Origin: a bacterium
GTDB taxonomy: Bacteria > Patescibacteriota > Minisyncoccia > Phycocordibacterales > VMGT01
Reading direction: 5' to 3'
DNA length: 64,000 nucleotides
Assembly (NCBI GenBank): GCA_030697645.1
Contig: JAUYPI010000006.1
Coordinates: 12,017 to 76,016 of the forward strand
Shown: positions 18,799-63,527 of the stretch, piece after piece
Numbering within the stretch: the stretch's first letter is position 1
How the letters are laid out: every line of letters begins with the position of its first letter
Position numbers and translations under genes: made by a program
The notes under the pieces: generated by a model
What the model was told of the DNA's origin: nothing
Databases searched by the model: none
What the model saw: only the letters and a program-made list of their open reading frames with translations

Positions 18799-18833
18799 GC
18801 AAAAAAGAAGACCCCACAGCGCAAAGTGCGAAA

Positions 18834-18872
18834 ACCCCCGTATTCAAGTATGCTCGCTTGAATACGGGGTTT
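18834..18872 (+). terminator. Rho-independent terminator after dnaJ
   Basis: ccccgtattcaag...cttgaatacgggg followed by tttgctctgt. Confidence 0.6.
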
Positions 18873-18915: not shown

Positions 18916-20088
18916 TTAGAGGCTACATGCTACAAAGAACTGTTCAATCGATGTAGACCAACGGGCTGTATGCATGCAGTAAAATTGCGGACCGTCAGGA
19001 ACATGTTTGTCAACGATCGTGCGTAACTCGGCGCCCGTAATAGATGCCGCGGCGAGTTGCCCCTCGGCGGTGAGCAGTTTTCCTAGATGCCGTAGAGTGC
19101 CGTAGGTAGACCCGCGATCTCGACGGAAATCCTCGATGGAACAGCCCGTATGCGCACGAAGCGTCTCCGGCGTGATCGAGCTCGACTCAAGGAGATTAGC
19201 TAGGCAGTCGAGGAGGCCCGGCACATGCAAAAAGAATGATGGGAAGCGGTACGCTGCCGCTCCCCGATTGATGCGTATCAGCGTTCCTCGATCGCCGAAC
19301 AGAGCACTCGACGGTTCAAAGCGTGGTAATCGCTCGCCCTCCGTCGTGCAGAGCGTGAGCGTTGTTTCAATGAATTCCGGCCGTAAGATACCAGTCAGAA
19401 ATTTAAACTTCCGTTTTTGTCCGCGGAAGAACACCTTGTGGAAGAGCGCGAAGCAGTGCGCCATGCAGCGATGTTTATACGGAAGCCGCGTATTCGTTTC
19501 GACAGCGCAGAAAGGGGGGATGCCGCAGAGCCGCGACATGGTGACAATGGTCCGCATGAATTCTGGATCGCCGTGGTACAGCTCGTCGCGAAACAATGAA
19601 GCGAGCTCGCCACTCACATGGCACACTTCGGTAAAGTCTGATGTCCCATACGGCTCCCCACGCCCCGGAATAAACCGCATACTCACCCATTCCTCTATCA
19701 AAGGCGGACTGTGTTCAATACCGTGCCCCGCGGGTTCCATCGCATGCGGCTCGCGAATTTCACCGTAGAGCGGGTACTCGACATTGAGCAGGTACACGAG
19801 GCTTTTGGTATCGAACTCGTCGAGCGGCGGGCAATCGCCGTAGCGATTATACGAGCTGCGGCAGGCGAGTGTCAGACGGAGTGCGGATTCGTTGGTCCAG
19901 CATGGATCGTAGAGTGGCTTCGCCACATATATGGTTAACGTCGTGTGCCCGAACCGCTCGCATGCACACGGCGTCAGTGATTCTCTACATTCACGGCCAA
20001 GAGCGATGACTTGTTCCAGTGGGGGCTGCGGTACTATGGAAACGTATAGCTCACTCTGCTGCGGCAAAAGGTAGGGAACTGTGCGCAT
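18916..20088 (-). CDS. Cysteine-rich hypothetical protein (~16 Cys), divergent from the E1-like gene
   Basis: 428-aa ORF (longest start 20202, internal ATG ~20088); no recognised family; protein-like composition. Confidence 0.5.
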   Translation of the reverse strand: MRTVPYLLPQQSELYVSIVPQPPLEQVIALGRECRESLTPCACERFGHTTLTIYVAKPLYDPCWTNESALRLTLACRSSYNRYGDCPPLDEFDTKSLVYLLNVEYPLYGEIREPHAMEPAGHGIEHSPPLIEEWVSMRFIPGRGEPYGTSDFTEVCHVSGELASLFRDELYHGDPEFMRTIVTMSRLCGIPPFCAVETNTRLPYKHRCMAHCFALFHKVFFRGQKRKFKFLTGILRPEFIETTLTLCTTEGERLPRFEPSSALFGDRGTLIRINRGAAAYRFPSFFLHVPGLLDCLANLLESSSITPETLRAHTGCSIEDFRRDRGSTYGTLRHLGKLLTAEGQLAAASITGAELRTIVDKHVPDGPQFYCMHTARWSTSIEQFFVACSL

Positions 20089-20293
20089 GTGGTGTCCTTT
20101 CTTTTGATTATGGGTAGCATACAAGAACGGCCCGTGGCCATCTTTTTTGGAACTCGTGTCTGGTCTGAGATACAGTCTAGAGTGCCGAGATTCATTTGTC
20201 AAAAATATGCACTGGCACCTTTCGCTTTCGTGAGTTTATGGCTATCATATGGTAATGTCCTCGGAGCGTCATGGACAGCACAAGGGGCGACTT

Positions 20294-21553
20294 ATGGGCA
20301 AGCCCGTGCTGATCGGTGCTGCCCGAGCGCACCGAAGCGGCAGCGTCCGCTATCTTAAAAACGGCACCGCATGTATCAAAATTCCTGACATAAGCGAGAT
20401 ACGCATTCCACGTGCGCGGCAATTTGATCTCACCGAGGCTACGATCTTCGGGCTTAACGAACGTTTGACTTCTACTGCCGCTTCACCAATTGTTGGTGCT
20501 CGGGGCAGGATGCAGAAAACGCTTCGCGACGTGTTCAACGCCGAGTGGCAGAGGTATGCGAGAGCCTTGGAGCGCGCCGAGGACGCCGGTTCTTTTAACT
20601 ACGGCATCTATGCTCTGTATCGAGGCGAACAGACCCTTGTGCGTTACGCGTCGCCCAAGTGGCACCGGATCGTTGCTATCGCCAGCAGCTCCACGCTGCT
20701 CACCGATCCTCGGCGAGAACTCAGCTGGCAGGAGGTACAGTCGTGTTTCGCGAAGACAACGATCGCGGTTGCAGGCGGGAGCGTCGGTGGTAATGTGCTC
20801 CACTGTGCGGTGATGGACATGCGTCCGGCCGCGGTTAAAATCGCGGACAAAAGCGTGTATAAAATGGAAAATATTAATCGCGTACGGCTTCGCTACGATG
20901 AACTTGTTTCGTCAAATGAACACCGCTCCTCTCTTGCCGAGACGCTCCTGCGCAACAAGGCAGAAGTATTGGCGACGCAACTCTACGCGATAGATCCGTT
21001 TTTGAGAGCGTATGTGTATGCAGAGGGCATTACGCACGAGACACTTGGGCCGTTTCTCGACGGTACCGGCCGAGAACCCGCAGTGGATATCATCGTCGAG
21101 GAAGTAGATGACCCTCGTACCAAAATCTTACTCCGCGAAGCCGCGCGCGAGCGGCGCTTGCCGCTCATCATGGTCTCTGACTTTGGGTCCGCGGTGCAAC
21201 TCGATGTCTCGCGATATGACCTCAACCCATCGGCACCGCTCGCGTACGGTACGGAAGATGCGCTCCTTCGTACGCGCACTGATGCATTGTATGAACGAGT
21301 CGGTGACCGCGACGCTTTTTTTGATTTTGTCGATGCGCTCGCCGGCACCGACTATCGCACTGGTGAGCTCGCGGCGATTCTTCGAGGCTCGTGCGAAATC
21401 CCTACTTCCACCATCATACCGCAACTCGGCTCAACCGCCGCGATGGCAGGCGCCATCGCGGCGGAAACCATAGCGCGTGTACGCCTAGGACATCGCTATC
21501 CATCGCGCGTCGTTATGAATAAGCACACATGTGCCGTGAAGCGATATGAGTGA
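20294..21553 (+). CDS. ThiF/MoeB/E1-like adenylyltransferase-family protein with long N-terminal extension
   Basis: Rossmann motif IAVAGGSVGGNV..., PLIMVSDFGSAVQLD, IIPQLGSTAAMAGAIAAETIARV. ATG at 20294 is preceded by the aagggg RBS; the longest ORF starts at 20249. Confidence 0.6.
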   Translation: MGKPVLIGAARAHRSGSVRYLKNGTACIKIPDISEIRIPRARQFDLTEATIFGLNERLTSTAASPIVGARGRMQKTLRDVFNAEWQRYARALERAEDAGSFNYGIYALYRGEQTLVRYASPKWHRIVAIASSSTLLTDPRRELSWQEVQSCFAKTTIAVAGGSVGGNVLHCAVMDMRPAAVKIADKSVYKMENINRVRLRYDELVSSNEHRSSLAETLLRNKAEVLATQLYAIDPFLRAYVYAEGITHETLGPFLDGTGREPAVDIIVEEVDDPRTKILLREAARERRLPLIMVSDFGSAVQLDVSRYDLNPSAPLAYGTEDALLRTRTDALYERVGDRDAFFDFVDALAGTDYRTGELAAILRGSCEIPTSTIIPQLGSTAAMAGAIAAETIARVRLGHRYPSRVVMNKHTCAVKRYE

Positions 21554-21556
21554 CCG

Positions 21557-22732
21557 TCACGGAGATGGCTCGTGTGTGAGGACAAGTTCCTCAAGCGGCA
21601 CCCGCGGCGCTCTCGGACGCAGTGCATGCGCCGGGTTGCGCAGGTAACCGGCACGAAACAACGCCGCAATGGGACGAAGCGTGCCAAGAGTGAGTGCAAA
21701 CATTTTATTGACGAGGGCGACTTCGACAAGCGCGGCATGAACCGCAACCGCAATGTCGGCGCTCGTGAGCTCGAGGAGGATGCGCTCGAGCATGCGGCCG
21801 GCAGCAAGCCAGTGGGCGACGTCGTTTTTTTTAATCGTGAGGATACCTATGAGCGGGGAGCTTTCAATCCCTGCTTTACCACCGAGCGCAAACCGGAGCA
21901 TATCGTCTGGCCTGAGCGCGCCCTCTCCGACAAGGCCGTCGTGGATACGTATCGCCTGCGTATCACTGAGGCCGAACCCTATTCCCGGCATGCCACGTCC
22001 TGCGTCGGTGTCGTTGTGGAGTAGCCAGTGACCGAGCTCGCGGCTAAAGCGTGGTGAGTTGAGGACGAAATTGTCAGCTTGCGCTTGAAATTCTGCAATC
22101 GCGCGCCGTCTGACGCCATCGGTGATGAGATGAATCTTCACGCCACTCTCGTGCATCGCGAGAATTTTTTTCATGAGCGCGTGCGGCATGTGTTTTTCTG
22201 GCAGAAATTCAGCCCGCGTCATTTTGCGTGTAAAAAGGGCTCGCATGAGAGCGTGTGCGCCTCGAGCATCCCGAAGCCCTGCATGCGCCGGCTCGTCAAA
22301 TAATATTTCGGCAAGGGGCACGTACCTCTGTTCACTCCGGGCAAGAGCGGGTTTGACCTCGGATAGAGCGGCGTTGCGTAGTCGTGCCGCTCGCGTGAGA
22401 CCGTAGTAGCTCGCCGCAATGAGAGCGTTCTCCACTGCCGCACCGATGCTGATAACCGACTGTCTGCCCGTCGGGTCAGATGCGGGAAGCACAAACCTGC
22501 GGTCGAGAAAAAACTGCAAGGCTGGATTTCGTTCTCTAGTTCTAAGAACGAATGCCCATGGTTGCGTGTTGTGTGTGCTCGGGGCACGCGAGGCGCAGCA
22601 GGCAAGATATCGCAGACGCCGCTCCGGCGTAAGCGCTCCAAATGCCTCGTATGAGAGCATCGTCTCGCACACTACCTTTTCCTGTACACGCTCACGCATA
22701 GGGGGCGACGCATTGAAGCCAGTATAGTACAC
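21557..22732 (-). CDS. Tandem nitroreductase-family protein (SagB/McbC-like dehydrogenase?)
   Basis: RAPSTHNTQPWAFVL nitroreductase signature plus a second nitroreductase-like half; start uncertain (22732/22699/22660). Confidence 0.6.
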   Translation of the reverse strand: MYYTGFNASPPMRERVQEKVVCETMLSYEAFGALTPERRLRYLACCASRAPSTHNTQPWAFVLRTRERNPALQFFLDRRFVLPASDPTGRQSVISIGAAVENALIAASYYGLTRAARLRNAALSEVKPALARSEQRYVPLAEILFDEPAHAGLRDARGAHALMRALFTRKMTRAEFLPEKHMPHALMKKILAMHESGVKIHLITDGVRRRAIAEFQAQADNFVLNSPRFSRELGHWLLHNDTDAGRGMPGIGFGLSDTQAIRIHDGLVGEGALRPDDMLRFALGGKAGIESSPLIGILTIKKNDVAHWLAAGRMLERILLELTSADIAVAVHAALVEVALVNKMFALTLGTLRPIAALFRAGYLRNPAHALRPRAPRVPLEELVLTHEPSP

Positions 22733-22968
22733 TATCGGTATGCAATATTATACTATAATCACAAGCGAGCGGAAAGCGAAAAGAGGTCTTTTCATTTTCC
22801 GCCAGCGCCGTGATTATATTCAAGCGAGCGAGCGACATGCGAGAGAGTATGCCCTCTCGCATGTCCGAGCGAGCGCAGAATATATGGCACGTATGCCATA
22901 TATACCCAAAAACATTCGCAAACCTGCTGCTTTTGGGTATATAACCAGAGCGTAACACCACGAAATGT

Positions 22969-24597
22969 ATGGAGTCACTTTCTACTGAGCTTCTTCTTGG
23001 CGCGCTCGCATTTAGCACCGCTGGCCTTCTCGGACTTGTTGTATTTTTGCGGGACAGAAAGAGCGCGACCCACCAACTATTCTTCGTGCTTGCCGTTTTG
23101 ATCGAAGCGTATATCGTCGTTAACTTTGTCTCGCTGCACCCGCCACGCACCACACCGGAGAGCCAGCTCTTCTGGATCCGGATGGTCATGTTCGTCGTGT
23201 CATATATCGGACCGACGCTCCTTTTGCTCGTCACGACGTTCCCCGCGAAGCGAATTCGTCTCTCGTGGCGCTTGCTCGTGCCAGTGGGTATGCTCATGGT
23301 CGCTTCCGCCGCCGCCTCTCTTTTGCCGTTCGTGTTTTCGTCAATCCACTATCCGGAAGGTGAGCCGATCCCCATTCCCGGCCCCGGCATATTTGTCTTT
23401 GCGGCAGACTTCGTCGGCCTTTTTATTCTCAGCTTTGTCGTTCTATTGGTTCGTTATCGCCGTGCAGTGGGACCAGAACGCTCCATGCTCAACTACCTCT
23501 TCTGGGGTGTAGTAGTGTCGTTCTCGCTCATGGCGATTTTCGCGTTTCTATTCGTTGTCGTCATCAAAACATCAGCGTTCGTCTTCCTCGGCCCTATTTT
23601 CCCGGTGATCCTTATGGCATCGATCGCTTATGCGATCGTTCGGCATAGGATGTTTAACATTCGTCTTATTGCTACTGAAGCGCTTGTCGTCTCCATCCTC
23701 ATCTTTCTCTTCGTGCGTTTATTTACTCGCCTCTCTACAACAGACATCGTCATCGACGCTACTATCTTTGTTCTCTCTGCGGTGTTCGGGGTGCTTGTGA
23801 TCCGTGGCGTCCACAGAGAAGCAGCGGCACGCGAGCGGATACAAAAACTTGCTGACGATCTCAGAGCGGCGAACGTTCGCCTCCAAGAGCTCGACCAGCT
23901 CAAATCCGAGTTTCTCTCACTTGCCTCGCACCAGATTAGGACGCCGATCTCAGTGATCAAAGGCTATGCATCCCTTCTTCTTGAAGGATCGATCGGGCCA
24001 CTCACTGAGCAGGTGCACGAGGCGGTGGATCGTATTTTTCGTTCAGGCAACGCGCTCGCGCTCATTGTAGACGACTTTTTGAACATATCACGCATCGAAC
24101 AGGGGCAGCTGAAGTATGATTTCGTCGAGATTGATCTTTCAGCCCTTCTGTCCCGCCTCGTCGAGGAGCAACGTTCGGTGTCTGAGAAGATAGGACTCAC
24201 ACTCGACCTCCACATGCAAACGGGGGAACCCGTCACCATACAGGGGGACGAAGGAAAAATTCGTCAGGTTGTCGCGAACCTCATCGACAATGCGATTAAG
24301 TACACGCCGCATGGGGGCATCACTGTGACGCTCGGAGGGCATGCTGAGGAGGGGTGCGTACACCTCTCGGTTTCTGACACCGGCATCGGCATAGCAAAAG
24401 AGACGATCCCAACGCTGTTCACCAAATTCGGCCGTGCAAAGAATGCGAGCGCACATAATGTCTCCGGCACTGGCCTCGGCCTCTACCTTGCAAGACAAAT
24501 TGTCCAGGCGCACGGCGGTAAAATTTGGGCCGAGTCCGAAGGGGAAGGGAAAGGCACAACCTTACATCTCGAGCTCCGCAAGCGGCTCCTATCGTAG
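22969..24597 (+). CDS. Sensor histidine kinase (polytopic membrane N-terminus, HisKA + HATPase_c)
   Basis: Multiple TM helices; H-box SHQIRTPISVIKGYASLL; N/G1/G2 boxes (NLIDNAIKYT, DTGIGI, GTGLGL). Confidence 0.85.
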   Translation: MESLSTELLLGALAFSTAGLLGLVVFLRDRKSATHQLFFVLAVLIEAYIVVNFVSLHPPRTTPESQLFWIRMVMFVVSYIGPTLLLLVTTFPAKRIRLSWRLLVPVGMLMVASAAASLLPFVFSSIHYPEGEPIPIPGPGIFVFAADFVGLFILSFVVLLVRYRRAVGPERSMLNYLFWGVVVSFSLMAIFAFLFVVVIKTSAFVFLGPIFPVILMASIAYAIVRHRMFNIRLIATEALVVSILIFLFVRLFTRLSTTDIVIDATIFVLSAVFGVLVIRGVHREAAARERIQKLADDLRAANVRLQELDQLKSEFLSLASHQIRTPISVIKGYASLLLEGSIGPLTEQVHEAVDRIFRSGNALALIVDDFLNISRIEQGQLKYDFVEIDLSALLSRLVEEQRSVSEKIGLTLDLHMQTGEPVTIQGDEGKIRQVVANLIDNAIKYTPHGGITVTLGGHAEEGCVHLSVSDTGIGIAKETIPTLFTKFGRAKNASAHNVSGTGLGLYLARQIVQAHGGKIWAESEGEGKGTTLHLELRKRLLS

Positions 24598-24719: not shown

Positions 24720-25715
24720 ATGACAGCGGACGGGCAAAAAACGCTCCTCTCCGGCGTGAAGCCGACGGGAAGGCCGCACATTGGCAACTACTTTGGCGCG
24801 ATGAGGCAGTTCGTCGAGCTCTCGCGGCAGCACGGCGGCGGATTTTTCATGATCGCCGATTATCATGCGCTCACTACTCTCTACGACCCGCGCTCTCTTG
24901 CCGAGAACACGATCGGCGTTGCACTCGACTACCTCGCGATCGGGCTTGATCCGGAGCGCGCCGTGATTTTTAAACAGTCGGACGTGCAAGCGCATACCGA
25001 GCTTGCATGGATCTTTGATTGCATTACGACGATGCCCTACCTCATGCGCGCGCACGCGTTCAAGGATGCCGAGGCGAAAAATAAAGAGATCAGCGTCGGC
25101 ACGTTCAATTACCCGATGCTCATGGCCGCGGACATCCTGCTCTACAGCCCCGACATCGTGCCGGTCGGGGACGACCAGAAACAGCATCTCGAGATTGCGC
25201 GCGACACGGCAGCAAAATTCAACGGCATTTTTGGCGAGACCTTCAAGCTGCCAGAGCCGCACATACTCGAGCATGTCGGCACCGTCCCCGGGCTCGACGG
25301 CCGCAAGATGAGCAAGAGCTACAAAAACACCATCCCGCTCTTTGCAGAAGATGAAGAAATTGCGCAGCTTGTAATGAATATCGTGACGGATTCCCGAGCC
25401 AAAGGCGAGCCACTTGATCCGCACACTGATACTGTTTTTGCGCTCCACTCTCTTTTTGCGAACGAAACGGAACTCGCTCGGCTTGCCGAGAGATATCGAA
25501 GCGGCAGCATCGGCTACAGAGAATCAAAGGAGCTCCTCGTCGAGCGCCTGAAGACATTTGCCGCACCCCTGCGCGAAAAACGCAGAAACATGGCGAGCGA
25601 TAGAGCGCGTGTACTCGATGTGCTCGAGGAAGGCGCAAGAAAAGCTCTGGCGAGGGCGGGCGCGACAATGGCAGACGTGCGCCGAAAAATCGGCGTATGC
25701 TCATACCCGGGGTAG
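24720..25715 (+). CDS. trpS: Tryptophanyl-tRNA synthetase
   Basis: Class I HIGN (TGRPHIGNYFGA) and KMSKS motifs; 331 aa. Confidence 0.9.
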   Translation: MTADGQKTLLSGVKPTGRPHIGNYFGAMRQFVELSRQHGGGFFMIADYHALTTLYDPRSLAENTIGVALDYLAIGLDPERAVIFKQSDVQAHTELAWIFDCITTMPYLMRAHAFKDAEAKNKEISVGTFNYPMLMAADILLYSPDIVPVGDDQKQHLEIARDTAAKFNGIFGETFKLPEPHILEHVGTVPGLDGRKMSKSYKNTIPLFAEDEEIAQLVMNIVTDSRAKGEPLDPHTDTVFALHSLFANETELARLAERYRSGSIGYRESKELLVERLKTFAAPLREKRRNMASDRARVLDVLEEGARKALARAGATMADVRRKIGVCSYPG

Positions 25716-29993: not shown

Positions 29994-31106
29994 CTATCGT
30001 GGAGAAGATGCAGGATTCGTCTGGCGGAGCGGGATCGTGAATCGTATGGTAGTGCCTTCGTTTTCAGCGCTGGTGAAATCCATCTTACCGCCGTGGTTTT
30101 CGACGATATTTTTCGCCATGTAGAGGCCGAGGCCGGTGCCGGCGGTAGCATAGAGTTTAGCATTTCTGGCGCGGAAGAATTGATCGAAGACCTGGCGCTG
30201 TTGCTCCTTCGGGATGCCAATGCCGGTGTCTGCGACGCTGACCTCGATGTCTCGCGCCTTCTTTCGTACGGTGAGCGCGACCGCACCTCCTTCAGGCGTA
30301 TATTTGATCGCGTTGTTGATAAGGTTGTCAATAACGATGCCGACTTTTTCTGCGTCGATCGAAATTGAGGGCAGCACGGAGGGCAGAGAGATTGAGAAAG
30401 CGACTCGCTTACGCTTGGCAACAGGACGCGTTGCGTTAACGACCTTTTCAATAATCGGCAGGAAATCCTGTTCCACCGGCACGAAGCCAAAGCGTCCTTC
30501 CTCGATGCGCGCAGTGTCGAGGAGGTCGCTAATGAGCTCTGTCGCAGTGACTGTCACCCCGAGGCTCTCATTGAGTATTTTGAGCTGTTCCTCACTGAGC
30601 GGCCCGAGTTCGCCGTCAACAAGCGACTGGAGCGACCAACGCACGCCTGTGAGAGGTGTCCGGAGCTGGTGCGCCGCGACTGAGACGAATTCTGATTTGA
30701 CGAGATCAAGGCCTTCGAGGCGCGTGTTCGCGCTCGAGAGCTCGATATCACGGCGCACGAGCACCTTGCCGACCTCGCTGAATTCACCCGCGACGCGGGA
30801 ATACTCATCGTTCGCCCGGGAGGACTCTCGGTCTTTGCGCACGAGAAGCCGTGCGCTATCGGTGTTCTCGTGAAGCCATACTTCGAGCTCTTGGTTGTGT
30901 TTGCTGAGCGTGCGCACGGCGCTGAACGCTGCCGTCGCCGCCCCCGCTGCAGTGAGGGCGGTGAGAGCGCCCCAGAGCACGCGGTTAAGCAGGCCTGCCG
31001 TTAAAATCGCGGCCGCAGTCACGAGCGGCGAGAGAAGGAGCGCGAGGGTAAGGCGGAGGCGGGGGGAGAGAGTAAAGATATTGCCGGCATGTTTGGGAAA
31101 GTGCAT
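29994..31106 (-). CDS. Sensor histidine kinase
   Basis: N-terminal TM segments, H-box AAHQLRTPLTGV, N/G boxes NLINNAIKYT, DTGIGI, GTGLGL; ATG at 31106 (TTG at 31121 also possible). Confidence 0.85.
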   Translation of the reverse strand: MHFPKHAGNIFTLSPRLRLTLALLLSPLVTAAAILTAGLLNRVLWGALTALTAAGAATAAFSAVRTLSKHNQELEVWLHENTDSARLLVRKDRESSRANDEYSRVAGEFSEVGKVLVRRDIELSSANTRLEGLDLVKSEFVSVAAHQLRTPLTGVRWSLQSLVDGELGPLSEEQLKILNESLGVTVTATELISDLLDTARIEEGRFGFVPVEQDFLPIIEKVVNATRPVAKRKRVAFSISLPSVLPSISIDAEKVGIVIDNLINNAIKYTPEGGAVALTVRKKARDIEVSVADTGIGIPKEQQRQVFDQFFRARNAKLYATAGTGLGLYMAKNIVENHGGKMDFTSAENEGTTIRFTIPLRQTNPASSPR

Positions 31107-31124
31107 GGGAGTAAAATGCAAAGT

Positions 31125-31335
31125 TCAAAGCGCAAAACGCAAAACAACAACGCAAAATAACACAGTAAAATTCGAATTTCCAACCAACAAGCTCCAAATC
31201 AAATAAATTCCAAGCTCCAACCAACAAGCTCCAAACAAATTTCAAATTCCAATGCATCAAATCTCAAACACGCACGTCGTGTTTGGAAATTGGATTTTGA
31301 ATATTGGGATTTGTTTGGAAATTGTTTTTTGGAAA
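31125..31335. repeat. Long variant palindromic A-tract element (ccaaatttc/ggaaattgg units around caaacacgcacgtcgtgtttgg)
   Basis: Tandem ~10-nt units on both sides of a palindromic ACGTCG-like core. Confidence 0.7.
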
Positions 31336-31387
31336 TTGGAGATTCGTTTTGCTTTTTGCACTGTTGTTTTTCGCTTTACACTTTGCG

Positions 31388-32590
31388 TTACTTCGTCCCA
31401 ATCCCCACAATCGTAATCGTCCCATTATGGAACAGCGTCGGCTCGGGTGCAGTGCCGCCGCCGATCGCGTGTATCGCGGGCGCGTACTCGCCGTAGCTTG
31501 CAATGCCGAGAAGCGGCGTATCACGCCCCACGATATCAAGAATAGCGTTGGTTTCGTCTTTGATCATAGCACCGAGGAGTTTTTTGCGTGAGATGCTCTC
31601 AAAGACGAGGAGGAGTTTCAGCGAGACGTGTGAGCGCTTCAAGCGCTCCATCAGGCCCTCGGTCGCGGTGCATGCAGCAGTCAGCGCTTTTTCTTTGCTC
31701 CCGATCATGAGACGAACCCGAGCGCCCTCGGGTATTGCCGCGGCGAGAGTGAGCGAACCGTCTTCTTCTGCCCTGAGGGGATTTCGGATGAGGTACTCAT
31801 CGCTCACGCCAGTGCGGACGCCAAGTGGGTAGCCGAGTGCCGAATGTGCGAGTGGCTCGGCGCGAAGTTTTGATAGATCTTCCCCGAAATAGTCTTCGTA
31901 GATAGACGCAGCTCTCCTTCCCTCGAGTTCAAAAACGCGCGTACCTTCTGCGCGCGTTACTCTCTGCGGTATGCCGACCGGTATCCAGCCGCCTTCGACG
32001 CCGATGCCGAGCACGCATTCGCCTGAGATCGCACAACCGACAAGAGCGTCGTCTCCAACGAGAGCGTCCCGGTACTGGAACGTCCGCTCGAACGTGAGCT
32101 CATCACTTGCCGCCACTCCGGCAGCCGGTATATTCGCACCGAGCACACTCTGCAAGCCCCCGAGCACCTCGGCAGCGCCGCCTCGGAGCATATTAGCGAA
32201 GAGGAGGAGTCCGACGAGCTCCCCGGTGGCGAGTTCCCTGATTTCTTGCCCTACGAGGGCGCCTGCGGCGCGGGCGCCGTTTTTCATGAGCCCCATACCG
32301 GAGGCGAATGTGACTGAGTCGCTCTCGAGCGCGACGACCGCTACCGTCTGGTCAACGGGGCCTTCATTCGTGAGGATCCCCGTGGCTGAACAGCCGACAA
32401 GGGGAGCGTTGCCGCTTGCGTCCCGCACGCCGCGGACGAGCGCCTCCTGGTCGTAGAGTGTAGAAGCGAATACCAAAAGCTGCGTCGGCCGCTCAACCCC
32501 CGCCCTCTCAAGGGCGCTCTGAGCTGCCGCAAAACCCGCTTGGTGCGCGTCGTGTTCTTTGGCGGTGCCGACTCCGACGATGAGAGACAT
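31388..32590 (-). CDS. FIST-domain (FIST N + FIST C) sensory protein
   Basis: 400-aa Gly/Ala-rich two-lobed protein lying between RR and HK genes; FIST-like composition. Confidence 0.5.
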   Translation of the reverse strand: MSLIVGVGTAKEHDAHQAGFAAAQSALERAGVERPTQLLVFASTLYDQEALVRGVRDASGNAPLVGCSATGILTNEGPVDQTVAVVALESDSVTFASGMGLMKNGARAAGALVGQEIRELATGELVGLLLFANMLRGGAAEVLGGLQSVLGANIPAAGVAASDELTFERTFQYRDALVGDDALVGCAISGECVLGIGVEGGWIPVGIPQRVTRAEGTRVFELEGRRAASIYEDYFGEDLSKLRAEPLAHSALGYPLGVRTGVSDEYLIRNPLRAEEDGSLTLAAAIPEGARVRLMIGSKEKALTAACTATEGLMERLKRSHVSLKLLLVFESISRKKLLGAMIKDETNAILDIVGRDTPLLGIASYGEYAPAIHAIGGGTAPEPTLFHNGTITIVGIGTK

Positions 32591-32801
32591 GGGGGATGAT
32601 GGCGCAACCGCTCACGCCTTAAAATTTTGCGCTCGAGCTTCGGCGTTTAGAAATAACAGTCGCCTCATTGACGAAAAACGCATAACTCGCCTGCGGGCTC
32701 AAACAGATGCGTTTTTCTATTCGGCTCCTTTATTTCCAAAACGCCTCTCGCTATGCGCAAAATTTTAAGGCGTGAGCGGTTCCGGCGTGAGAGTGGTTTG
32801 A

Positions 32802-33272
32802 CTACGTAATTCCGAGCAACTGCTCTATCTTCGCCACGATCTCGTTCGGCGATGTGTTCGCTTTGACAGCGTAGTCCGCAGCCCCGATCTGCCTTGCTTT
32901 CTCAAGGTCGTCTCGTTGACCGAGATTGGAGAGAATAAGCACGGGGATATGTTTCATCTTTTCATTCGCCTTGATCTCGCGCAGGAGCACGAAGCCGTCC
33001 TCGCCGGGAAGGATGAGATCAAGGCAAACGAGATTGATCGGCTTTTCGGCAAGGAGTGCGCGACCCTCTTCGACCGTCTCCGCCCGAAAGACGGTAAATT
33101 TCTGATCGTGGAGCTTTCGCTCAAGCATGCCGCCGAGAAACGGGTCGTCTTCAACAACGAGGAGCACAGCGCGAGTCTCCTCAGGTGAGATTTCTCGTGG
33201 AGCATCGCCTGATCCTGCCACACTGTCCGCACCGGGACCGGTGGCGCTCTCTTGAATGCTGTCATCATTCAT
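32802..33272 (-). CDS. Response regulator, receiver domain only (CheY-like)
   Basis: LLVVEDDP...LDLILPGEDGF...PVLILSNLG...ADYAVK receiver motifs; ATG at 33272. Confidence 0.8.
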   Translation of the reverse strand: MNDDSIQESATGPGADSVAGSGDAPREISPEETRAVLLVVEDDPFLGGMLERKLHDQKFTVFRAETVEEGRALLAEKPINLVCLDLILPGEDGFVLLREIKANEKMKHIPVLILSNLGQRDDLEKARQIGAADYAVKANTSPNEIVAKIEQLLGIT

Positions 33273-33550
33273 AGAAGTATTGAGAGTATAACAAAGAGAG
33301 CGCACGGCGCACAAGGACACCCCTGTGTATAACGTGCGCTTGACAGGGGATGCAGGCCGCGTTACATTGTGATATAAGGTCAAAATGTTACATGTCAAAT
33401 GTCATGAACTCGGATTTCGAGCCCCGAATATTCGGATTTGGATAAGTCTTTTTTATCAGTTAATTTTTTACGCCGAGATCGCTTCGCACTGTCGTCCGCG
33501 CTCATCGAGGCGTCGGTAATTTCCGAAGCGATTCTCGCGTACCACATAGT

Positions 33551-59836: not shown

Positions 59837-60925
59837 ATGGAGGCCACACAAAGTTCAAACCTCGGTACCGTACAGTCGCACCACTATCATTTAAGTGGGA
59901 GGCAGGTCGCTATAGTTGTGGGGATTGCGGTGCTGATCGCGACAGCGGGAATTGGTGGATATGTTTTTTTAAAAAATTCATTACCGCAGCCACCCCAATT
60001 ACCGATTATTCGTCTGTGGCATAACGGGGTTGTTTATGATGGCGTTGAGGGTTCCTATTGCTGGCCAACTCAAGAATCTTCCGCGGACGGGGAGTTTTTG
60101 AACCTCTGTGTTGACCGAGTATTTGGAGGCCCGGAAACGAGTATTCGTGTTCCTTCAGGAGACACTATGTCGATTGATGTTCAGGCATACGCGCCAGCCG
60201 AAAAGGTATGGGTGACTTTGTTTCAGGAGTCTGGTGAGCGGCTGAGCGATATACCTGTTACTGTCGGAGAAACAGTATCGACCTTCGTCCTTGATACATC
60301 ACCAGGCACATACGTTGTTCTCGTTAGTGGCGCATGGTCTGATGACAAATTCGCCGGAGATATTAATTATTCCTTTACTGTCCAAGTTGTTGGTGGCACT
60401 AACAACGAGATCAATGTTGACACATCAGGCTGGCAAACCTACCGCAATGAGGAGTTTGAATTTGAGGTGAAGTATCCTGGAGGGTGGTTTAACACGCGCA
60501 ACCTCATTGAGGATATTAGGGAAGAAAAACTTTTTGAATTTTCGAGTGAGAAAAATTTTACCGTAGACGCCATTACGTTACAGATAGTTCGTTCAGAAAG
60601 CATACAGAGTAAGAATTTATTCGTGGATCTTCAAAATTTAAAACCTGGAGAAACTTTTGAACAGGACCTTGTCGTATACACCAAAATTGAGGACCTCAAT
60701 ATCGGAGGATTTTTAGCCATTCGCCATACCGCAGACAGAAGTTCAATACCATACATAGCACTGCCTATACGGAGCGAAATCCTTTTGAAAAGAGACGGGA
60801 CCACTTTTCTCTTTGTGTTTGTTGGTTCGCCAGAAATTTTTGAACATCAGAAAATCGTTTTCGATCAAATTCTCTCAACCTTCCGATTTCTTGAGCCGAG
60901 CAGGAAGGCTTTTCCGTTGGAGTAA
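59837..60925 (+). CDS. Hypothetical membrane-anchored extracytoplasmic protein (low-GC block)
   Basis: N-terminal TM helix VAIVVGIAVLIATAGIGGYVFL; beta-rich composition. Confidence 0.5.
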   Translation: MEATQSSNLGTVQSHHYHLSGRQVAIVVGIAVLIATAGIGGYVFLKNSLPQPPQLPIIRLWHNGVVYDGVEGSYCWPTQESSADGEFLNLCVDRVFGGPETSIRVPSGDTMSIDVQAYAPAEKVWVTLFQESGERLSDIPVTVGETVSTFVLDTSPGTYVVLVSGAWSDDKFAGDINYSFTVQVVGGTNNEINVDTSGWQTYRNEEFEFEVKYPGGWFNTRNLIEDIREEKLFEFSSEKNFTVDAITLQIVRSESIQSKNLFVDLQNLKPGETFEQDLVVYTKIEDLNIGGFLAIRHTADRSSIPYIALPIRSEILLKRDGTTFLFVFVGSPEIFEHQKIVFDQILSTFRFLEPSRKAFPLE

Positions 60926-62207: not shown

Positions 62208-63527
62208 ATGTCCTTAAAAAACGGCTTCGCACAACTTCCGATCATTATTATCATCGGCATCGTAATTCTTGGTGCGGGATTTGTGGTGGTACGCAAAAAT
62301 TTTCGCATGCCTCGGCTGATACTTCCCGTAGAGAAGCCAGGCCTTCCGATTCCGCAGCCAGCTCCGCTACCTTCTCCATCTCCTTCGCCGTCGCCGACGC
62401 CCTCTCCGTCACCCAGCCCTGCACCCACCCCATCTCCGCCGCCTCCCGGTTCCCAACCACCTTCGCCATCGCCGACACCTAACCCCGTTCCCGCCGGGAG
62501 CCTTAATGCGCAAAGCGCGAAAGGAATTTTTGCGCTCGACAGCGTCAAGGGGACGTACCGCGATAATGGTATTCGAAGCTATGATTTTGTAGCCGGATAT
62601 GCCTGGCGTATGGGCTGGTATAATTTTGAGTCCTCAAAGGGCGTGTACGATTTCGCAGCGCTGGATCACATTTTGGGGAAGCTTAACCCTCTCGGGAAAA
62701 AGCTTTCTCTGAATATGCTCTCTTCAAACAAAACCGAGCCGGCCTATATCACGGCAGAATCCGGGGTAACCACATGGACATTCACGGATCAAAATACCCG
62801 TCATGAGGATTATGGCAAACCCCAGGTAAAGCCGGTCCCATGGGATTCATATCTGCAATCGCGATTCAGCATATTCGCCGAAAAACTTGCGAATTACCAG
62901 TCGCCGAATCCAGCAGGAGGCACAATCGCACTTCGTGATAACCCGGCATTAGCTCAAATCATTGTAACCATTCCCGGTCTTGGCTCCATCCGCGAAGGAC
63001 CGGGGGGCGCAGCAACGCCAGAACTCTCAACGATGCCTGGGTATAGCCGTCAAGTTTTCATTGACGCTATCCTTGCCGCCCTCCGGGCGATTGCTCGAAA
63101 TTTCCCTCAAAAACCGATTTCAGTTCCTTTTTTTCATGTGACCGACACTACGACATCGCCGTCGCTGGATCAGACGATCCACGATGCTATTCAAGCGGAA
63201 TTTGATGGAGTAAAAAATCCGAAAGTCGGATATTTCCAAGAAAACCTGTCGGCCCTAAATACGACCGGAAGCATTCTTTGTTCGCCCGACGGGTCTCGCG
63301 ATCCTTTGAAGCTTGCAACAGGGAAAACGTGGCTCGCATTCCAAATGTTGCAATCGTGGGTAACTCCGTTTGCCAATCCGTCAAAAAACGCGGGTACAAT
63401 ACCCACAGATGCCATCAGCTGTGGAAACAGTCTCATGGGGATCACGTACTTTGAAGTGTATGTGCCGGATCTCGATAACGCCGCGTGGCACGCATCGTTT
63501 CGTGATTGGGCCGCGAAGTTAAAGTAG
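62208..63527 (+). CDS. Hypothetical membrane-anchored protein with Pro/Ser-rich (PSPS) linker
   Basis: N-terminal TM, long PSPSPSPTPSP linker, C-terminal globular domain. Confidence 0.55.
   Translation: MSLKNGFAQLPIIIIIGIVILGAGFVVVRKNFRMPRLILPVEKPGLPIPQPAPLPSPSPSPSPTPSPSPSPAPTPSPPPPGSQPPSPSPTPNPVPAGSLNAQSAKGIFALDSVKGTYRDNGIRSYDFVAGYAWRMGWYNFESSKGVYDFAALDHILGKLNPLGKKLSLNMLSSNKTEPAYITAESGVTTWTFTDQNTRHEDYGKPQVKPVPWDSYLQSRFSIFAEKLANYQSPNPAGGTIALRDNPALAQIIVTIPGLGSIREGPGGAATPELSTMPGYSRQVFIDAILAALRAIARNFPQKPISVPFFHVTDTTTSPSLDQTIHDAIQAEFDGVKNPKVGYFQENLSALNTTGSILCSPDGSRDPLKLATGKTWLAFQMLQSWVTPFANPSKNAGTIPTDAISCGNSLMGITYFEVYVPDLDNAAWHASFRDWAAKLK

What the first reader, a model, noticed from the sequence alone, without database searches (positions are those of the whole stretch)
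18916..22732. Divergent cluster of an E1-like (ThiF-family) protein, a tandem-nitroreductase protein and a Cys-rich protein: candidate azoline/RiPP-like or cofactor/sulfur-transfer modification system
The 20294-21553 product carries ThiF/MoeB Rossmann and C-terminal motifs behind a ~145-aa N-terminal extension. The convergent 21557-22732 product has two nitroreductase-like halves (RAPSTHNTQPWAF). E1-like docking proteins plus FMN nitroreductase-fold dehydrogenases are the C and B components of thiazole/oxazole (TOMM) synthetases. No YcaO could be recognised. The divergent 428-aa protein with ~16 cysteines (18916-20088) is unclassified. A 71-aa ORF (22740-22955) and an orphan histidine kinase follow. 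No precursor peptide is evident, so alternatives include a sulfur-carrier/tRNA-modification E1 system.
Basis: inference. Interest (0 to 1): 0.65.

Follow-up and report, generated by a model that had tools for sequence, protein, structure and literature searches.

The report
Split oxazolone-synthetase-like cluster with sensor kinase
Many ultra-small (Patescibacteria/CPR) bacteria keep the same four neighbouring genes, three of which resemble in separate pieces the enzymes that make N-acyl oxazolone lipids in Mycobacterium and Pseudoalteromonas, and the fourth is a membrane sensor kinase, so the cluster may make and sense a small signal molecule.

Summary
The ORFs exist as described, in a Patescibacteria (CPR) genome. 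The thiazole/oxazole-peptide (TOMM/RiPP) and sulfur-carrier readings are not supported.

- **E1-like protein (20294-21553, +).** It matches the N-terminal half of NCBIfam 'Rv1355c family protein' (TrzS) at 104 bits, against 33 bits or less for ThiF/MoeB models.
- **Tandem-nitroreductase protein (21557-22699/22732, -).** It is an Acg-type flavin-dependent oxidase and also matches the C-terminal half of the Rv1355c model. Rv1355c/TrzS, TyzB/TyzC and OxzB are characterised oxazolone synthetases: an ATP-dependent ThiF-like cyclase plus an O2-dependent desaturase acting on an N-acyl amino acid.
- **'Cys-rich' ORF (18916-20088, -).** It belongs to a family with no Pfam or NCBIfam match, here called X (247 representatives). 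Only one of its 16 cysteines is conserved.
- **X elsewhere.** X lies directly upstream of the ThiF-like gene in every other locus with enough flank, and is fused to it in three lineages. Weak but consistent evidence suggests a LuxI/FeeM-like acyltransferase fold.
- **Histidine kinase.** The 7TM kinase is a conserved fourth member of the cluster, not an unrelated orphan.
- **71-aa ORF.** It has no homologue in any related locus and is probably spurious. No YcaO was found.

Best reading: a split three-enzyme oxazolone-type pathway paired with a sensor kinase, a new variant of a known kind.

The parts
18833..18872 (.). Hairpin of 16-nt arms, followed by T-rich sequence, between the convergent dnaJ (ends 18798) and X (ends 18916). 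Likely a bidirectional terminator.
   Evidence: Inverted repeat I1, 94% complementary; terminator-like site 18836-18869; sequence.
18916..20088 (-). X: 390-aa protein of a family with no Pfam or NCBIfam match, the predicted N-acyltransferase ('A' component). It has an N-terminal alpha/beta domain with a LuxI/FeeM-like order of motifs (R77, Y83-G84, D90-x-Y-D93, E133-W134, R138-F-x-P141, S185-R186-x-C188) and a C-terminal helical domain. It is inverted relative to every other locus examined.
   Evidence: tblastn to the upstream genes of L001, L003 and L004, E 1e-28 to 1e-40. Alignments A2 and A4. 247 representatives. AF2 model, pLDDT 70. Top three Foldseek hits are GNAT acyltransferases but at E 0.1-0.3. 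hhalign against LuxI/GNAT-ThiF N-domains scores 23.9, P 0.006, above all controls. AAAGGA ribosome-binding site before ATG 20088. An independent assembly gives the same orientation and the same 390-aa call.
20089..20293 (.). Divergent intergenic region between X and the ThiF-like gene. It holds a promoter-like site for X on the minus strand (20202-20174) and the ribosome-binding sites of both genes.
   Evidence: consensus matches only.
20294..21553 (+). ThiF/E1-like protein (419 aa), the predicted ATP-dependent cyclase. It is homologous to the N-terminal half of Rv1355c/TrzS-type oxazolone synthetases. Adenylation motifs are kept: G161-x-S163-x-G165, D185, N193, R196, K222, D272. There is no conserved Cys. 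The first ~95 residues form a highly conserved extension not matched in the actinobacterial relatives tested.
   Evidence: NF005901 at 104 bits, E 5.6e-30, residues 90-419 on profile 36-328. Alignment A1 with its invariant columns. AF2 pLDDT 85 and Foldseek hits to ThiF, AclA, PaaA and MccB. Best PDB sequence match is TcdA. The family HMM hits plasmid Rv1355c-family proteins at 84-87 bits and a GNAT-ThiF fusion at 105 bits.
21557..22699 (-). Flavin-dependent oxidase of the nitroreductase superfamily (Acg-like), the predicted O2-dependent desaturase. It converges on the ThiF-like gene with stop codons 3 bp apart. The alternative start is GTG 22732.
   Evidence: NF047509 at 177 bits (cutoff 199) and the C-half of NF005901 at 64.5 bits. 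PDB 2ymv MsAcg, E 1e-6. Conserved motifs APSxHNTQPW, LPASDxxGRQ, EFQGQADNFV, GMPGxGFGL. Start analysis.
22700..22968 (.). Divergent promoter region between the oxidase and the kinase. It has TATAGTATAAT on the minus strand. It contains the 71-aa ORF (22740-22955, +), which is probably not a gene.
   Evidence: Sequence. The 71-aa ORF has no Pfam or NCBIfam hit and no homologue among the ORFs of 80 aa or more in the 31 related loci. The equivalent gap in most other loci is only ~55-130 bp.
22969..24597 (+). Sensor histidine kinase (542 aa) with an N-terminal 7TM region, the conserved fourth gene of the module.
   Evidence: HisKA_7TM, HisKA and HATPase_c. Homologues at 273-550 bits beside the oxidase in 28 of 31 related loci; the three without one end at a contig edge. 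Also in L037, L039 and L041.

Best explanation
The cluster encodes a three-protein, split version of an oxazolone synthetase, paired with a 7TM sensor kinase.

Proposed steps:
1. X makes an N-acylated amino acid, or a similar amide with a free alpha-carboxylate. This is inferred; the fold evidence is weak.
2. The ThiF-like protein adenylates that carboxylate with ATP, and the amide oxygen attacks to close a 5(4H)-oxazolone ring. This is inferred from homology to TrzS, TyzB and OxzB and from the retained adenylation residues.
3. The Acg-type FMN oxidase desaturates the alpha,beta bond using O2, giving an unsaturated acyl-oxazolone. This is inferred from homology to TyzC and the TrzS C-domain.
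4. The adjacent 7TM kinase either senses this lipid-like product or controls its synthesis. This rests on conserved gene context only.

What is shown directly: the family assignments of the ThiF-like and oxidase proteins; the conservation of the four-gene module across more than 25 CPR species-level genomes; and the X-ThiF gene fusions. The substrate, the product and the kinase's ligand are not shown.
For: 1. The two enzymes match the two halves of NF005901, 'Rv1355c family protein': ThiF-like on profile 36-328 at 104 bits, oxidase on profile 369-648 at 64.5 bits. The oxidase also scores 177 bits on the Acg family model.
2. [quoted passage not shown] TyzB and TyzC are the unfused equivalents, and OxzB is the proteobacterial fusion (PMC12856293, PMC10404671, bioRxiv 10.1101/2020.06.11.147165).
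3. Residues of the ThiF adenylation motifs are invariant in 19 family members, including D272 in the EEVDD motif, which I take to correspond to TrzS D217.
4. X, ThiF-like, oxidase and kinase are adjacent in all related loci with enough flank. X is fused to ThiF in L013, L030 and P0231/L041. This parallels the acyltransferase-ThiF-oxidase neighbourhoods of the known systems, and the GNAT-ThiF fusions on Kitasatospora and Streptomyces plasmids.
5. X shows the LuxI/FeeM order of motifs. hhalign scores 23.9 (P 0.006), against a maximum of 18.6 in 150 column shuffles, 16.9 for the reversed alignment, and 17.8 and 19.3 for unrelated families. The top three Foldseek PDB hits are GNAT acyltransferases. 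TyzA likewise carried only a 'hypothetical protein' annotation and was recognised only by structure comparison.
6. The kinase association survives rearrangement: in L041 the order is RR, X-ThiF, oxidase, transposase, kinase(-), RR.
7. Kleetz et al. already suggested that oxazolones resemble signalling molecules.
Against: - X has no significant sequence or structure match to any acyltransferase. No Pfam or NCBIfam hit appeared for any of 21 members, and no PDB sequence hit. Foldseek E-values are 0.1-0.3 on a pLDDT-70 model. hhalign against single TrzA-like or GNAT-ThiF sequences is not significant.
- Both enzymes score below the curated cutoffs: 104 against 476 for the fusion model, and 177 against 199 for the Acg model.
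- The oxidase is closer to the Acg-family model than to the Rv1355c C-half.
- One X-family member (P0177) carries an extra canonical Acetyltransf_5 half-domain in front of X. That could mean X is not itself the acyltransferase.
- CPR bacteria are generally thought to lack fatty-acid synthesis (my background knowledge), so the acyl donor is unclear. No acyl-CoA or ACP gene was seen among the window ORFs scanned.
- The oxidase is transcribed convergently to X-ThiF rather than in one operon.
- There is no experimental evidence for any step.
Confidence: 0.55

Rival explanations
1. The ThiF-like protein and the oxidase do perform ATP-dependent cyclisation and desaturation on a small molecule, but the substrate is not an N-acyl amino acid. 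X would then be a different kind of enzyme or a substrate-delivery protein, for example an aminoacyl-tRNA-dependent transferase or a maker of a ureido/carbamoyl amino acid. The product would be a different heterocycle.
For: - X has no significant match to known acyltransferases.
- P0177 has a separate canonical Acetyltransf_5 piece in front of X.
- A DHODH-X fusion is found on six contigs from two sources (JGI and Logan). Dihydroorotate dehydrogenase oxidises a cyclic carbamoyl amino acid.
- The cluster lies next to aminoacyl-tRNA synthetase genes in several loci.
- TcdA, the best PDB sequence match, cyclises a carbamoyl-threonine.
Against: The same motif order as LuxI/FeeM, the hhalign signal above all controls and the parallel with the acyltransferase-ThiF-oxidase gene triads of known systems all favour an acyltransferase. 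Synthetase neighbours are common in small CPR genomes and are not constant across loci.
Confidence: 0.2
2. The E1-like enzyme acts on a macromolecule: a protein or peptide C-terminus as in MccB and PaaA, or tRNA t6A as in TcdA. The oxidase would carry out a follow-up oxidation, and X would be the substrate or a scaffold.
For: - Most characterised ThiF-like enzymes act on proteins, peptides or tRNA.
- Foldseek finds PaaA, MccB and AclA among the top hits.
- TcdA is the best PDB sequence match.
- The conserved ~95-residue N-terminal extension could be a recognition domain.
Against: - By sequence the protein is far closer to the Rv1355c/TrzS family (104 bits) than to any other model; the TcdA match is 24 bits over about 100 residues.
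- No conserved small ORF lies in the module.
- The C-terminus of X is not conserved.
Confidence: 0.1
3. One reading: a TOMM/azoline RiPP synthetase, with the E1-like protein as the 'C' docking component and the nitroreductase as the 'B' dehydrogenase.
For: The domain pair (E1-like plus nitroreductase-fold FMN enzyme) is formally shared with TOMM systems.
Against: - No YcaO in the window ORFs scanned or in any related locus with Pfam annotation.
- No match to TIGR03605, TIGR03693 or TIGR03604 at E<=0.01.
- The only small ORF (71 aa) is not conserved.
- The oxidase is Acg-type, not SagB-type.
Confidence: 0.03
4. One reading: a sulfur-carrier activating E1 of the MoeB, ThiF or tRNA-thiolation type.
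For: Weak Pfam ThiF similarity. JGI and NCBI automatic names such as 'molybdopterin/thiamine biosynthesis adenylyltransferase'.
Against: - ThiF/MoeB equivalog models score 19-33 bits against cutoffs of 152-275.
- The family has no conserved cysteine, so no Zn site, no catalytic Cys and no rhodanese domain.
- No ThiS/MoaD Pfam domain is listed in six annotated related loci.
Confidence: 0.02

Closest known systems
TrzAS (Rv1356c/Rv1355c) N-acyl tryptazolone synthetase of Mycobacterium tuberculosis, M. smegmatis and Rhodococcus (Kleetz et al. 2025, PMC12856293)
   Same: The window's ThiF-like and oxidase proteins give their best or second-best NCBIfam matches to the two halves of the Rv1355c family model. 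They share the adenylation-motif Asp and the element just before the Rossmann fold, YxYY...LV in the CPR family and YPW...LVH in the actinobacterial proteins (read from the sequences). An acyltransferase-position gene sits next door.
   Different: - Here the cyclase and oxidase are separate, convergently transcribed genes rather than one fusion.
- The ThiF-like protein has an extra conserved ~95-residue N-terminal extension.
- The neighbour X (about 310-410 aa) shows no significant similarity to a TrzA-like protein.
- A 7TM histidine kinase is a constant neighbour, whereas trzAS lies next to c-di-GMP turnover genes.
- The host is a CPR bacterium rather than an actinobacterium.
TyzACB (Rv2336, Rv2337c, Rv2338c) N-acyl tyrazolone pathway of M. 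tuberculosis (Grigg et al. 2023, PMC10404671)
   Same: A three-protein architecture: an acyltransferase annotated only as 'hypothetical protein' (TyzA, 322 aa, recognised only by structure), a stand-alone ThiF homologue (TyzB) and a stand-alone single-flavin-site oxidase with a lid (TyzC, 372 aa). tyzA lies on the opposite strand to tyzBC, as X does in this window.
   Different: - In CPR the ThiF-like and oxidase genes are convergent rather than in one operon.
- TyzB is 318 aa with no N-terminal extension.
- The CPR oxidase scores higher on the Acg-family model than on the ThiF-associated type.
- Direct homology of X to TyzA was not testable here, because the TyzA sequence and the AlphaFold database libraries were unavailable.
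OxzAB oxazolone synthetase of Pseudoalteromonas rubra and other proteobacteria (de Rond et al., bioRxiv 10.1101/2020.06.11.147165)
   Same: An N-acyltransferase gene directly upstream and co-directional with the ThiF-nitroreductase enzyme, as X is in every CPR locus except this window. The chemistry is ATP-dependent cyclisation plus oxidation.
   Different: OxzB is a di-domain fusion. OxzA is described there as a recognisable N-acyltransferase homologue. No sensor kinase association is reported.
LuxI / FeeM-type acyl-CoA or acyl-ACP dependent N-acyltransferases (Pfam PF00765, PF13444, PF21926)
   Same: X has the same order of motifs (R...DxYD...R-hydrophobic-x-P...SR), and its predicted secondary-structure elements appear to follow the same order (my reading). 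The hhalign signal exceeds all controls.
   Different: No Pfam hit for any X member over the X domain itself. X is about 150 residues longer, with a C-terminal helical domain. It has a nearly invariant Cys after the SR motif.
TcdA/CsdL tRNA t6A dehydratase
   Same: The best solved-structure sequence match for the ThiF-like family. It is also an ATP-dependent cyclodehydratase, forming an oxazolone-type ring on an N-carbamoyl amino acid.
   Different: Only 24 bits over about 100 residues. TcdA acts on tRNA and has no oxidase partner.

Membership tests
Oxazolone synthetase (OxzAB / TyzACB / TrzAS) | ThiF-like cyclase of the Rv1355c/TrzS/TyzB/OxzB clade | tested here: met
   NF005901 is the best NCBIfam hit: 104 bits, E 5.6e-30, residues 90-419 on profile 36-328. 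The next model scores 33 bits. The reciprocal family HMM hits plasmid Rv1355c-family proteins at 84-87 bits. The score is below the curated cutoff of 476, which is set for the full fusion protein.
Oxazolone synthetase (OxzAB / TyzACB / TrzAS) | Intact adenylation site, including the Asp equivalent to TrzS D217 | tested here: met
   G161, S163, G165, D185, N193, R196, K222 and D272 are invariant in 19 members, and D273 is nearly so. The mapping of D217 onto the EE(V/C)D motif is my inference from the motif described in the paper and the plasmid homologues.
Oxazolone synthetase (OxzAB / TyzACB / TrzAS) | Flavin-dependent oxidase of the nitroreductase superfamily (Acg-like), fused to or adjacent to the ThiF gene | tested here: met
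   NF047509 at 177 bits (cutoff 199), the C-half of NF005901 at 64.5 bits, and PDB 2ymv. The gene is adjacent and convergent in 31 of 31 related loci.
Oxazolone synthetase (OxzAB / TyzACB / TrzAS) | Adjacent N-acyl amino acid synthase with a FeeM/LuxI-like fold | tested here: inconclusive
Oxazolone synthetase (OxzAB / TyzACB / TrzAS) | Product is an N-acyl oxazolone | not testable with these tools
   Requires expression and LC-MS or UV analysis.
TOMM / azoline RiPP synthetase | YcaO cyclodehydratase in the cluster | tested here: not met
   No PF02624 or TIGR03604 hit on the cluster proteins or on 29 window ORFs. None appears in the Pfam annotation of related loci.
TOMM / azoline RiPP synthetase | SagB-type dehydrogenase (TIGR03605) and Ocin_ThiF_like docking protein (TIGR03693) | tested here: not met
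   Neither model appears among the NCBIfam hits at E<=0.01.
TOMM / azoline RiPP synthetase | Conserved precursor peptide gene | tested here: not met
   The 71-aa ORF has no homologue among the ORFs of 80 aa or more in 31 related loci. The intergenic gaps in most other loci are about 55-130 bp, too short for an ORF of that size. Shorter peptide ORFs were not searched for systematically.
ThiF/MoeB sulfur-carrier activating enzymes | Equivalog-level similarity, Zn-binding or catalytic cysteines, and a ThiS/MoaD partner | tested here: not met
   ThiF/MoeB equivalog models score 19-33 bits against cutoffs of 152-275. No column of the family alignment has conserved Cys. No ThiS/MoaD Pfam domain is listed in the neighbouring genes.
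LuxI/FeeM acyltransferases (for X) | Pfam PF00765, PF13444 or PF21926 match over the domain | tested here: not met
   None of 21 X members matches at E<=10. In P0177 the PF13444 hit lies in an extra N-terminal segment, not in the X domain. The claim that X works like an acyltransferase therefore rests on weak profile and fold evidence and on gene context.

The most novel reading that the evidence does not exclude
The module is a self-contained small-molecule signalling circuit of CPR/Patescibacteria. A split synthase (X, ThiF-like cyclase, flavin oxidase) makes an acyl-oxazolone or related azlactone, and the co-conserved 7TM histidine kinase is its receptor. This would be a new chemical class of bacterial autoinducer or host-symbiont signal, found in organisms with otherwise minimal biosynthetic capacity. 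It would also give the first physiological role for the oxazolone lipids, whose function in Mycobacterium is still unknown.
Probability: 0.25. Interest if true: 0.85.

Novelty: new variant of a known kind. Interest (0 to 1): 0.6.

Why it matters
Oxazolone synthetases were discovered only in 2020-2025 and are described in Proteobacteria and Actinobacteria. The biological role of their products is unknown. My literature searches found no paper that links them to Patescibacteria.

Here a three-protein version lies next to a 7TM sensor kinase in more than 25 species-level genomes, nearly all labelled CPR/Patescibacteria. The ThiF-like protein keeps 50-62% identity across them. CPR bacteria have tiny genomes and are thought to depend on hosts.

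Such strong retention implies an important function. It also offers a testable link between oxazolone lipids and two-component signalling.

The work assigns a working function to three poorly annotated CPR protein families. It also defines a family with no Pfam or NCBIfam match (X, 247 representatives), whose gene fusions tie it to the pathway.

Tried and rejected
- **Pfam and NCBIfam on X**, both alone and for 21 family members at E<=10: nothing relevant.
- **PDB profile search with the X alignment:** no hit at E<=10.
- **Word-indexed homologue search with X alone:** found only itself, which wrongly suggested an orphan. tblastn from neighbouring loci and a full HMMER scan corrected this.
- **hhalign of X against single sequences** (a Rhodococcus TrzA-position protein and the Kitasatospora GNAT-ThiF N-domain): not significant.
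- **hhalign of X against four LuxI-family sequences alone:** E 0.084.
- **tblastn of the Kitasatospora GNAT domain against plasmids:** only two records, too few for a profile.
- **Rfam and tRNA scans of the window:** nothing.
- **Inverted repeats flanking X** that might explain the inversion: only short, imperfect ones (I4, 14 nt, 86%), not convincing.
- **Response regulator as a fifth member:** rejected as a constant feature. One is adjacent only in some loci.

Full report
**What is there**

The window comes from a Patescibacteria (CPR) metagenome-assembled genome. The only database copy of the divergent ORF is named 'MAG: hypothetical protein U1A28_03900 [Patescibacteria group bacterium]'. 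The surrounding genes are typical for such genomes: rpoA, dnaK, dnaJ, trpS, fusA, tuf, rplB, class II RNR and PPDK.

- X at 18916-20088 (-), 390 aa.
- An E1-like protein at 20294-21553 (+), 419 aa.
- A nitroreductase-type protein at 21557-22732 (-), more likely starting at ATG 22699.
- A 71-aa ORF at 22740-22955 (+).
- A histidine kinase at 22969-24597 (+).

**Family assignment of the two enzymes**

The E1-like protein is only marginal on Pfam ThiF (26.5 bits, cutoff 28.1). On NCBIfam its best match by far is NF005901, 'Rv1355c family protein': 104 bits, E 5.6e-30, residues 90-419 on profile positions 36-328 of 722. ThiF/MoeB-type models reach only 19-33 bits.

The nitroreductase protein matches NF047509, 'Acg family FMN-binding oxidoreductase', at 177 bits over its whole length (cutoff 199). 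It also matches the other half of the same Rv1355c model, positions 369-648, at 64.5 bits. Its closest solved structure is MsAcg, 2ymv. So the two convergent genes together correspond to one fusion protein of mycobacteria.

The AF2 model of the E1-like protein (pLDDT 85) matches ThiF, AclA, PaaA, MccB and MoeB at Foldseek E 1e-12 to 1e-9. The best PDB sequence match of the family profile is TcdA, the ATP-dependent t6A cyclodehydratase.

In an alignment of 19 family members the adenylation residues are invariant: G161, S163, G165, D185, N193, R196, K222 and D272. No cysteine is conserved. That argues for an active adenylating enzyme with no Zn site and no catalytic Cys.

**What the Rv1355c family does**

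A literature search for Rv1355c led to two papers from the Eltis laboratory.
- Grigg et al. 2023 (PMC10404671) showed that TyzA, an acyltransferase recognised only by structural similarity to FeeM and BjaI, makes N-acyl-Tyr. TyzB, a ThiF homologue, cyclises it with ATP. TyzC, a monomeric flavin-dependent oxidase of the nitroreductase superfamily with a lid like Acg, desaturates it with O2. The product is an acyl-oxazolone.
- Kleetz et al. 2025 (PMC12856293) showed that Rv1355c is TrzS, a ThiF-cyclase/oxidase fusion that works with TrzA (Rv1356c) to make N-acyl tryptazolones. A D217A change in the adenylation motif abolishes cyclisation.

The founding example is OxzAB of Pseudoalteromonas rubra. 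These pathways need no precursor peptide and no YcaO.

**The cluster is a conserved four-gene module**

The ThiF-like protein has more than 120 full-length homologues at 50-62% identity. All named ones are from Parcubacteria, Magasanikbacteria, Harrisonbacteria, Paceibacterota or unclassified Patescibacteria.

I fetched 31 related loci and tabulated the best phmmer hit for each window protein in each locus.
- The oxidase is next to the ThiF-like gene on the opposite strand in 31 of 31 loci. Their 3' ends usually overlap by 4-32 bp.
- The 7TM kinase is present in 28 of 31. The three exceptions end at a contig edge.
- A ~310-410 aa protein lies directly upstream of, and co-directional with, the ThiF-like gene in 28 of 31. 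The three exceptions start at a contig edge.

tblastn showed that this upstream protein is homologous to the window's 'Cys-rich' ORF (26-31% identity, E 1e-28 to 1e-40).

The window's X is therefore a module member that has been inverted. An independent Logan assembly reproduces the inversion. The closest relative (62% identical ThiF-like protein) has the usual order grpE-dnaK-dnaJ-X(+)-ThiF-oxidase(-)-kinase. In the window X has its own ribosome-binding site, a promoter-like site, and a terminator hairpin shared with dnaJ.

The 71-aa ORF has no homologue in any locus. It lies in the divergent promoter region between the oxidase and the kinase, where the minus strand reads TATAGTATAAT. I regard it as spurious.

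**What is X?**

A full HMMER scan of 1.84 billion representatives found 247 X-family members, 230 of them at E<=1e-10. There is no tail of distant relatives. None of 21 members hits Pfam or NCBIfam, and the profile hits no PDB sequence.

The window protein's 16 cysteines are not a family feature. The median in homologues is 4, and only C188 is conserved.

Three lines of evidence point to a LuxI/FeeM-like acyltransferase N-domain:
- **Motifs.** The conserved residues are R77, Y83-G84, D90-x-Y-D93, E133-W134, R138-F-x-P141 and S185-R186-x-C188. They come in the same order as the LuxI-family motifs R, ExDxYD, R-L-x-P and E-x-S-R. The AF2 secondary-structure elements appear to follow the order expected for that fold (my reading, not a tool result).
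- **Profile comparison.** hhalign of the X N-domain profile against six canonical sequences gives one alignment in exactly this register: score 23.9, P 0.006, 68 columns. Controls scored lower: 150 column shuffles reached at most 18.6 (mean 12.0, sd 2.2), the reversed alignment 16.9, and the unrelated ThiF-like and oxidase alignments 17.8 and 19.3.
- **Fold search.** The top three Foldseek PDB hits of the X model are GNAT acyltransferases (Hat1 twice and SidF), but at E 0.1-0.3 on a pLDDT-70 model.

Gene-fusion evidence is stronger.
- X is fused to the ThiF-like protein in L013, L030 and P0231/L041.
- Plasmids of Kitasatospora and Streptomyces carry proteins with weak GNAT matches (Acetyltransf_5 and Acetyltransf_7) fused to a ThiF domain that the CPR ThiF HMM hits at 105 bits.

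Two further fusions complicate the picture.
- P0177 has a canonical Acetyltransf_5 half-domain (E 2e-7) in front of a complete X domain, in a locus without the ThiF-like gene.
- P0240 is a dihydroorotate-dehydrogenase-X fusion, found on six contigs from two sources (JGI and Logan), within an otherwise normal module.

**The kinase**

The kinase has an N-terminal 7TM region (PF16927) followed by HisKA and HATPase_c. It stays next to the oxidase across the CPR loci. In the fused-gene lineage the order is rearranged to RR, X-ThiF, oxidase, transposase, kinase(-), RR, and the kinase is still present.

A response regulator is adjacent only in some loci. In the window the nearest one is at 32802-33398, inside a separate kinase-FIST-RR operon.

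Kleetz et al. noted that acyl-oxazolones resemble acyl-homoserine lactones and that trzAS lies next to c-di-GMP genes. The constant pairing with a 7TM sensor kinase in CPR fits a signalling role, but it is context evidence only.

**Verdict**

- *Shown:* the ORFs; the E1-like and Acg-type assignments; their correspondence to the two halves of the TrzS-type oxazolone synthetase; the conserved four-gene module; the X-ThiF fusions; the absence of YcaO, SagB-type, ThiS or MoaD features; and the lack of conservation of both the cysteines and the 71-aa ORF.
- *Inferred:* that X supplies an N-acyl amino acid, that the product is an oxazolone, and that the kinase senses it.

I found no paper that links oxazolone synthetases to Patescibacteria. 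I rate this a new variant of a known kind. It is split into three proteins, uses a divergent acyltransferase-position family, and is coupled to a sensor kinase in a new and unusual host group.

Noticed in passing
window 18916-20088 compared with L001-L031 and L037: X is inverted (divergent from the ThiF-like gene) only in this organism. In 28 other loci it is co-directional and directly upstream. Flanking synteny (dnaK-dnaJ, then the ThiF-like gene) is unchanged, and no convincing flanking inverted repeats were found.
   Followed up: yes
L013:2798-5200, L030:5795-8239, L041:6001-8388 (P0231): X and the ThiF-like protein are fused into one 795-814 aa protein in a lineage whose MAGs are labelled 'Candidatus Poribacteria'. 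There the kinase is on the opposite strand and response regulators flank the module.
   Followed up: partly
L039:6001-8118, L040:5247-7364 (P0240): A dihydroorotate-dehydrogenase (PF01180) domain is fused N-terminally to X. The fusion is seen on six contigs from two sources (JGI and Logan), within an otherwise normal X-ThiF-oxidase-kinase module. It is unexplained. It may hint at a carbamoyl or cyclic amino-acid substrate, or may simply be a fusion with a neighbouring gene.
   Followed up: partly
L035:4262-5644 (P0177): An X-family protein carries an extra N-terminal half-domain matching Pfam Acetyltransf_5 (E 2e-7). Its locus lacks the ThiF-like gene; NUDIX follows instead. It could be a chimera, or a clue that X partners with rather than replaces a canonical acyltransferase.
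   Followed up: partly
window 21551-21559, and the ThiF/oxidase junction in all related loci: The ThiF-like and oxidase genes are always convergent, with stop codons abutting or overlapping by 4-32 bp and no terminator between them. This is unusual for functionally coupled genes. It could mean antisense or transcriptional-interference control, with the oxidase and kinase sharing a divergent promoter.
   Followed up: no
window 24720-25715; L001:804-6851; L039:1-5990; L004:409-1752: Aminoacyl-tRNA synthetase genes often flank the module: trpS in the window, valS-tyrS-argS in L001 and L039, glyS in L004. This is probably a consequence of compact CPR genomes, but it is relevant if X uses aminoacyl-tRNA.
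   Followed up: no
window 29994-33398 (-): A second two-component operon: histidine kinase (375 aa), FIST-domain sensor protein (400 aa) and response regulator (198 aa).
   Followed up: no
window 42935-44524(-), 45238-46854(+), 47885-49915(+), and also 59837-60925 and 62208-63527: Several large ORFs (362-676 aa) have no Pfam match at E<=1e-5.
   Followed up: no
window 50574-53705 (+): A 1043-aa protein combines an SNF2-related helicase domain with a C-terminal class I methyltransferase domain.
   Followed up: no
L034:4080-6964, L038:3971-6885 (Kitasatospora and Streptomyces plasmids): A GNAT-like/ThiF fusion protein (616-622 aa) is followed in the same operon by a ketoacyl-ACP synthase III, with no flavin oxidase nearby. 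It may be a different acyl-amino-acid cyclising pathway.
   Followed up: no
window, whole: G+C is 49-59% across the window. The window's X has four times the median cysteine count of its family.
   Followed up: partly
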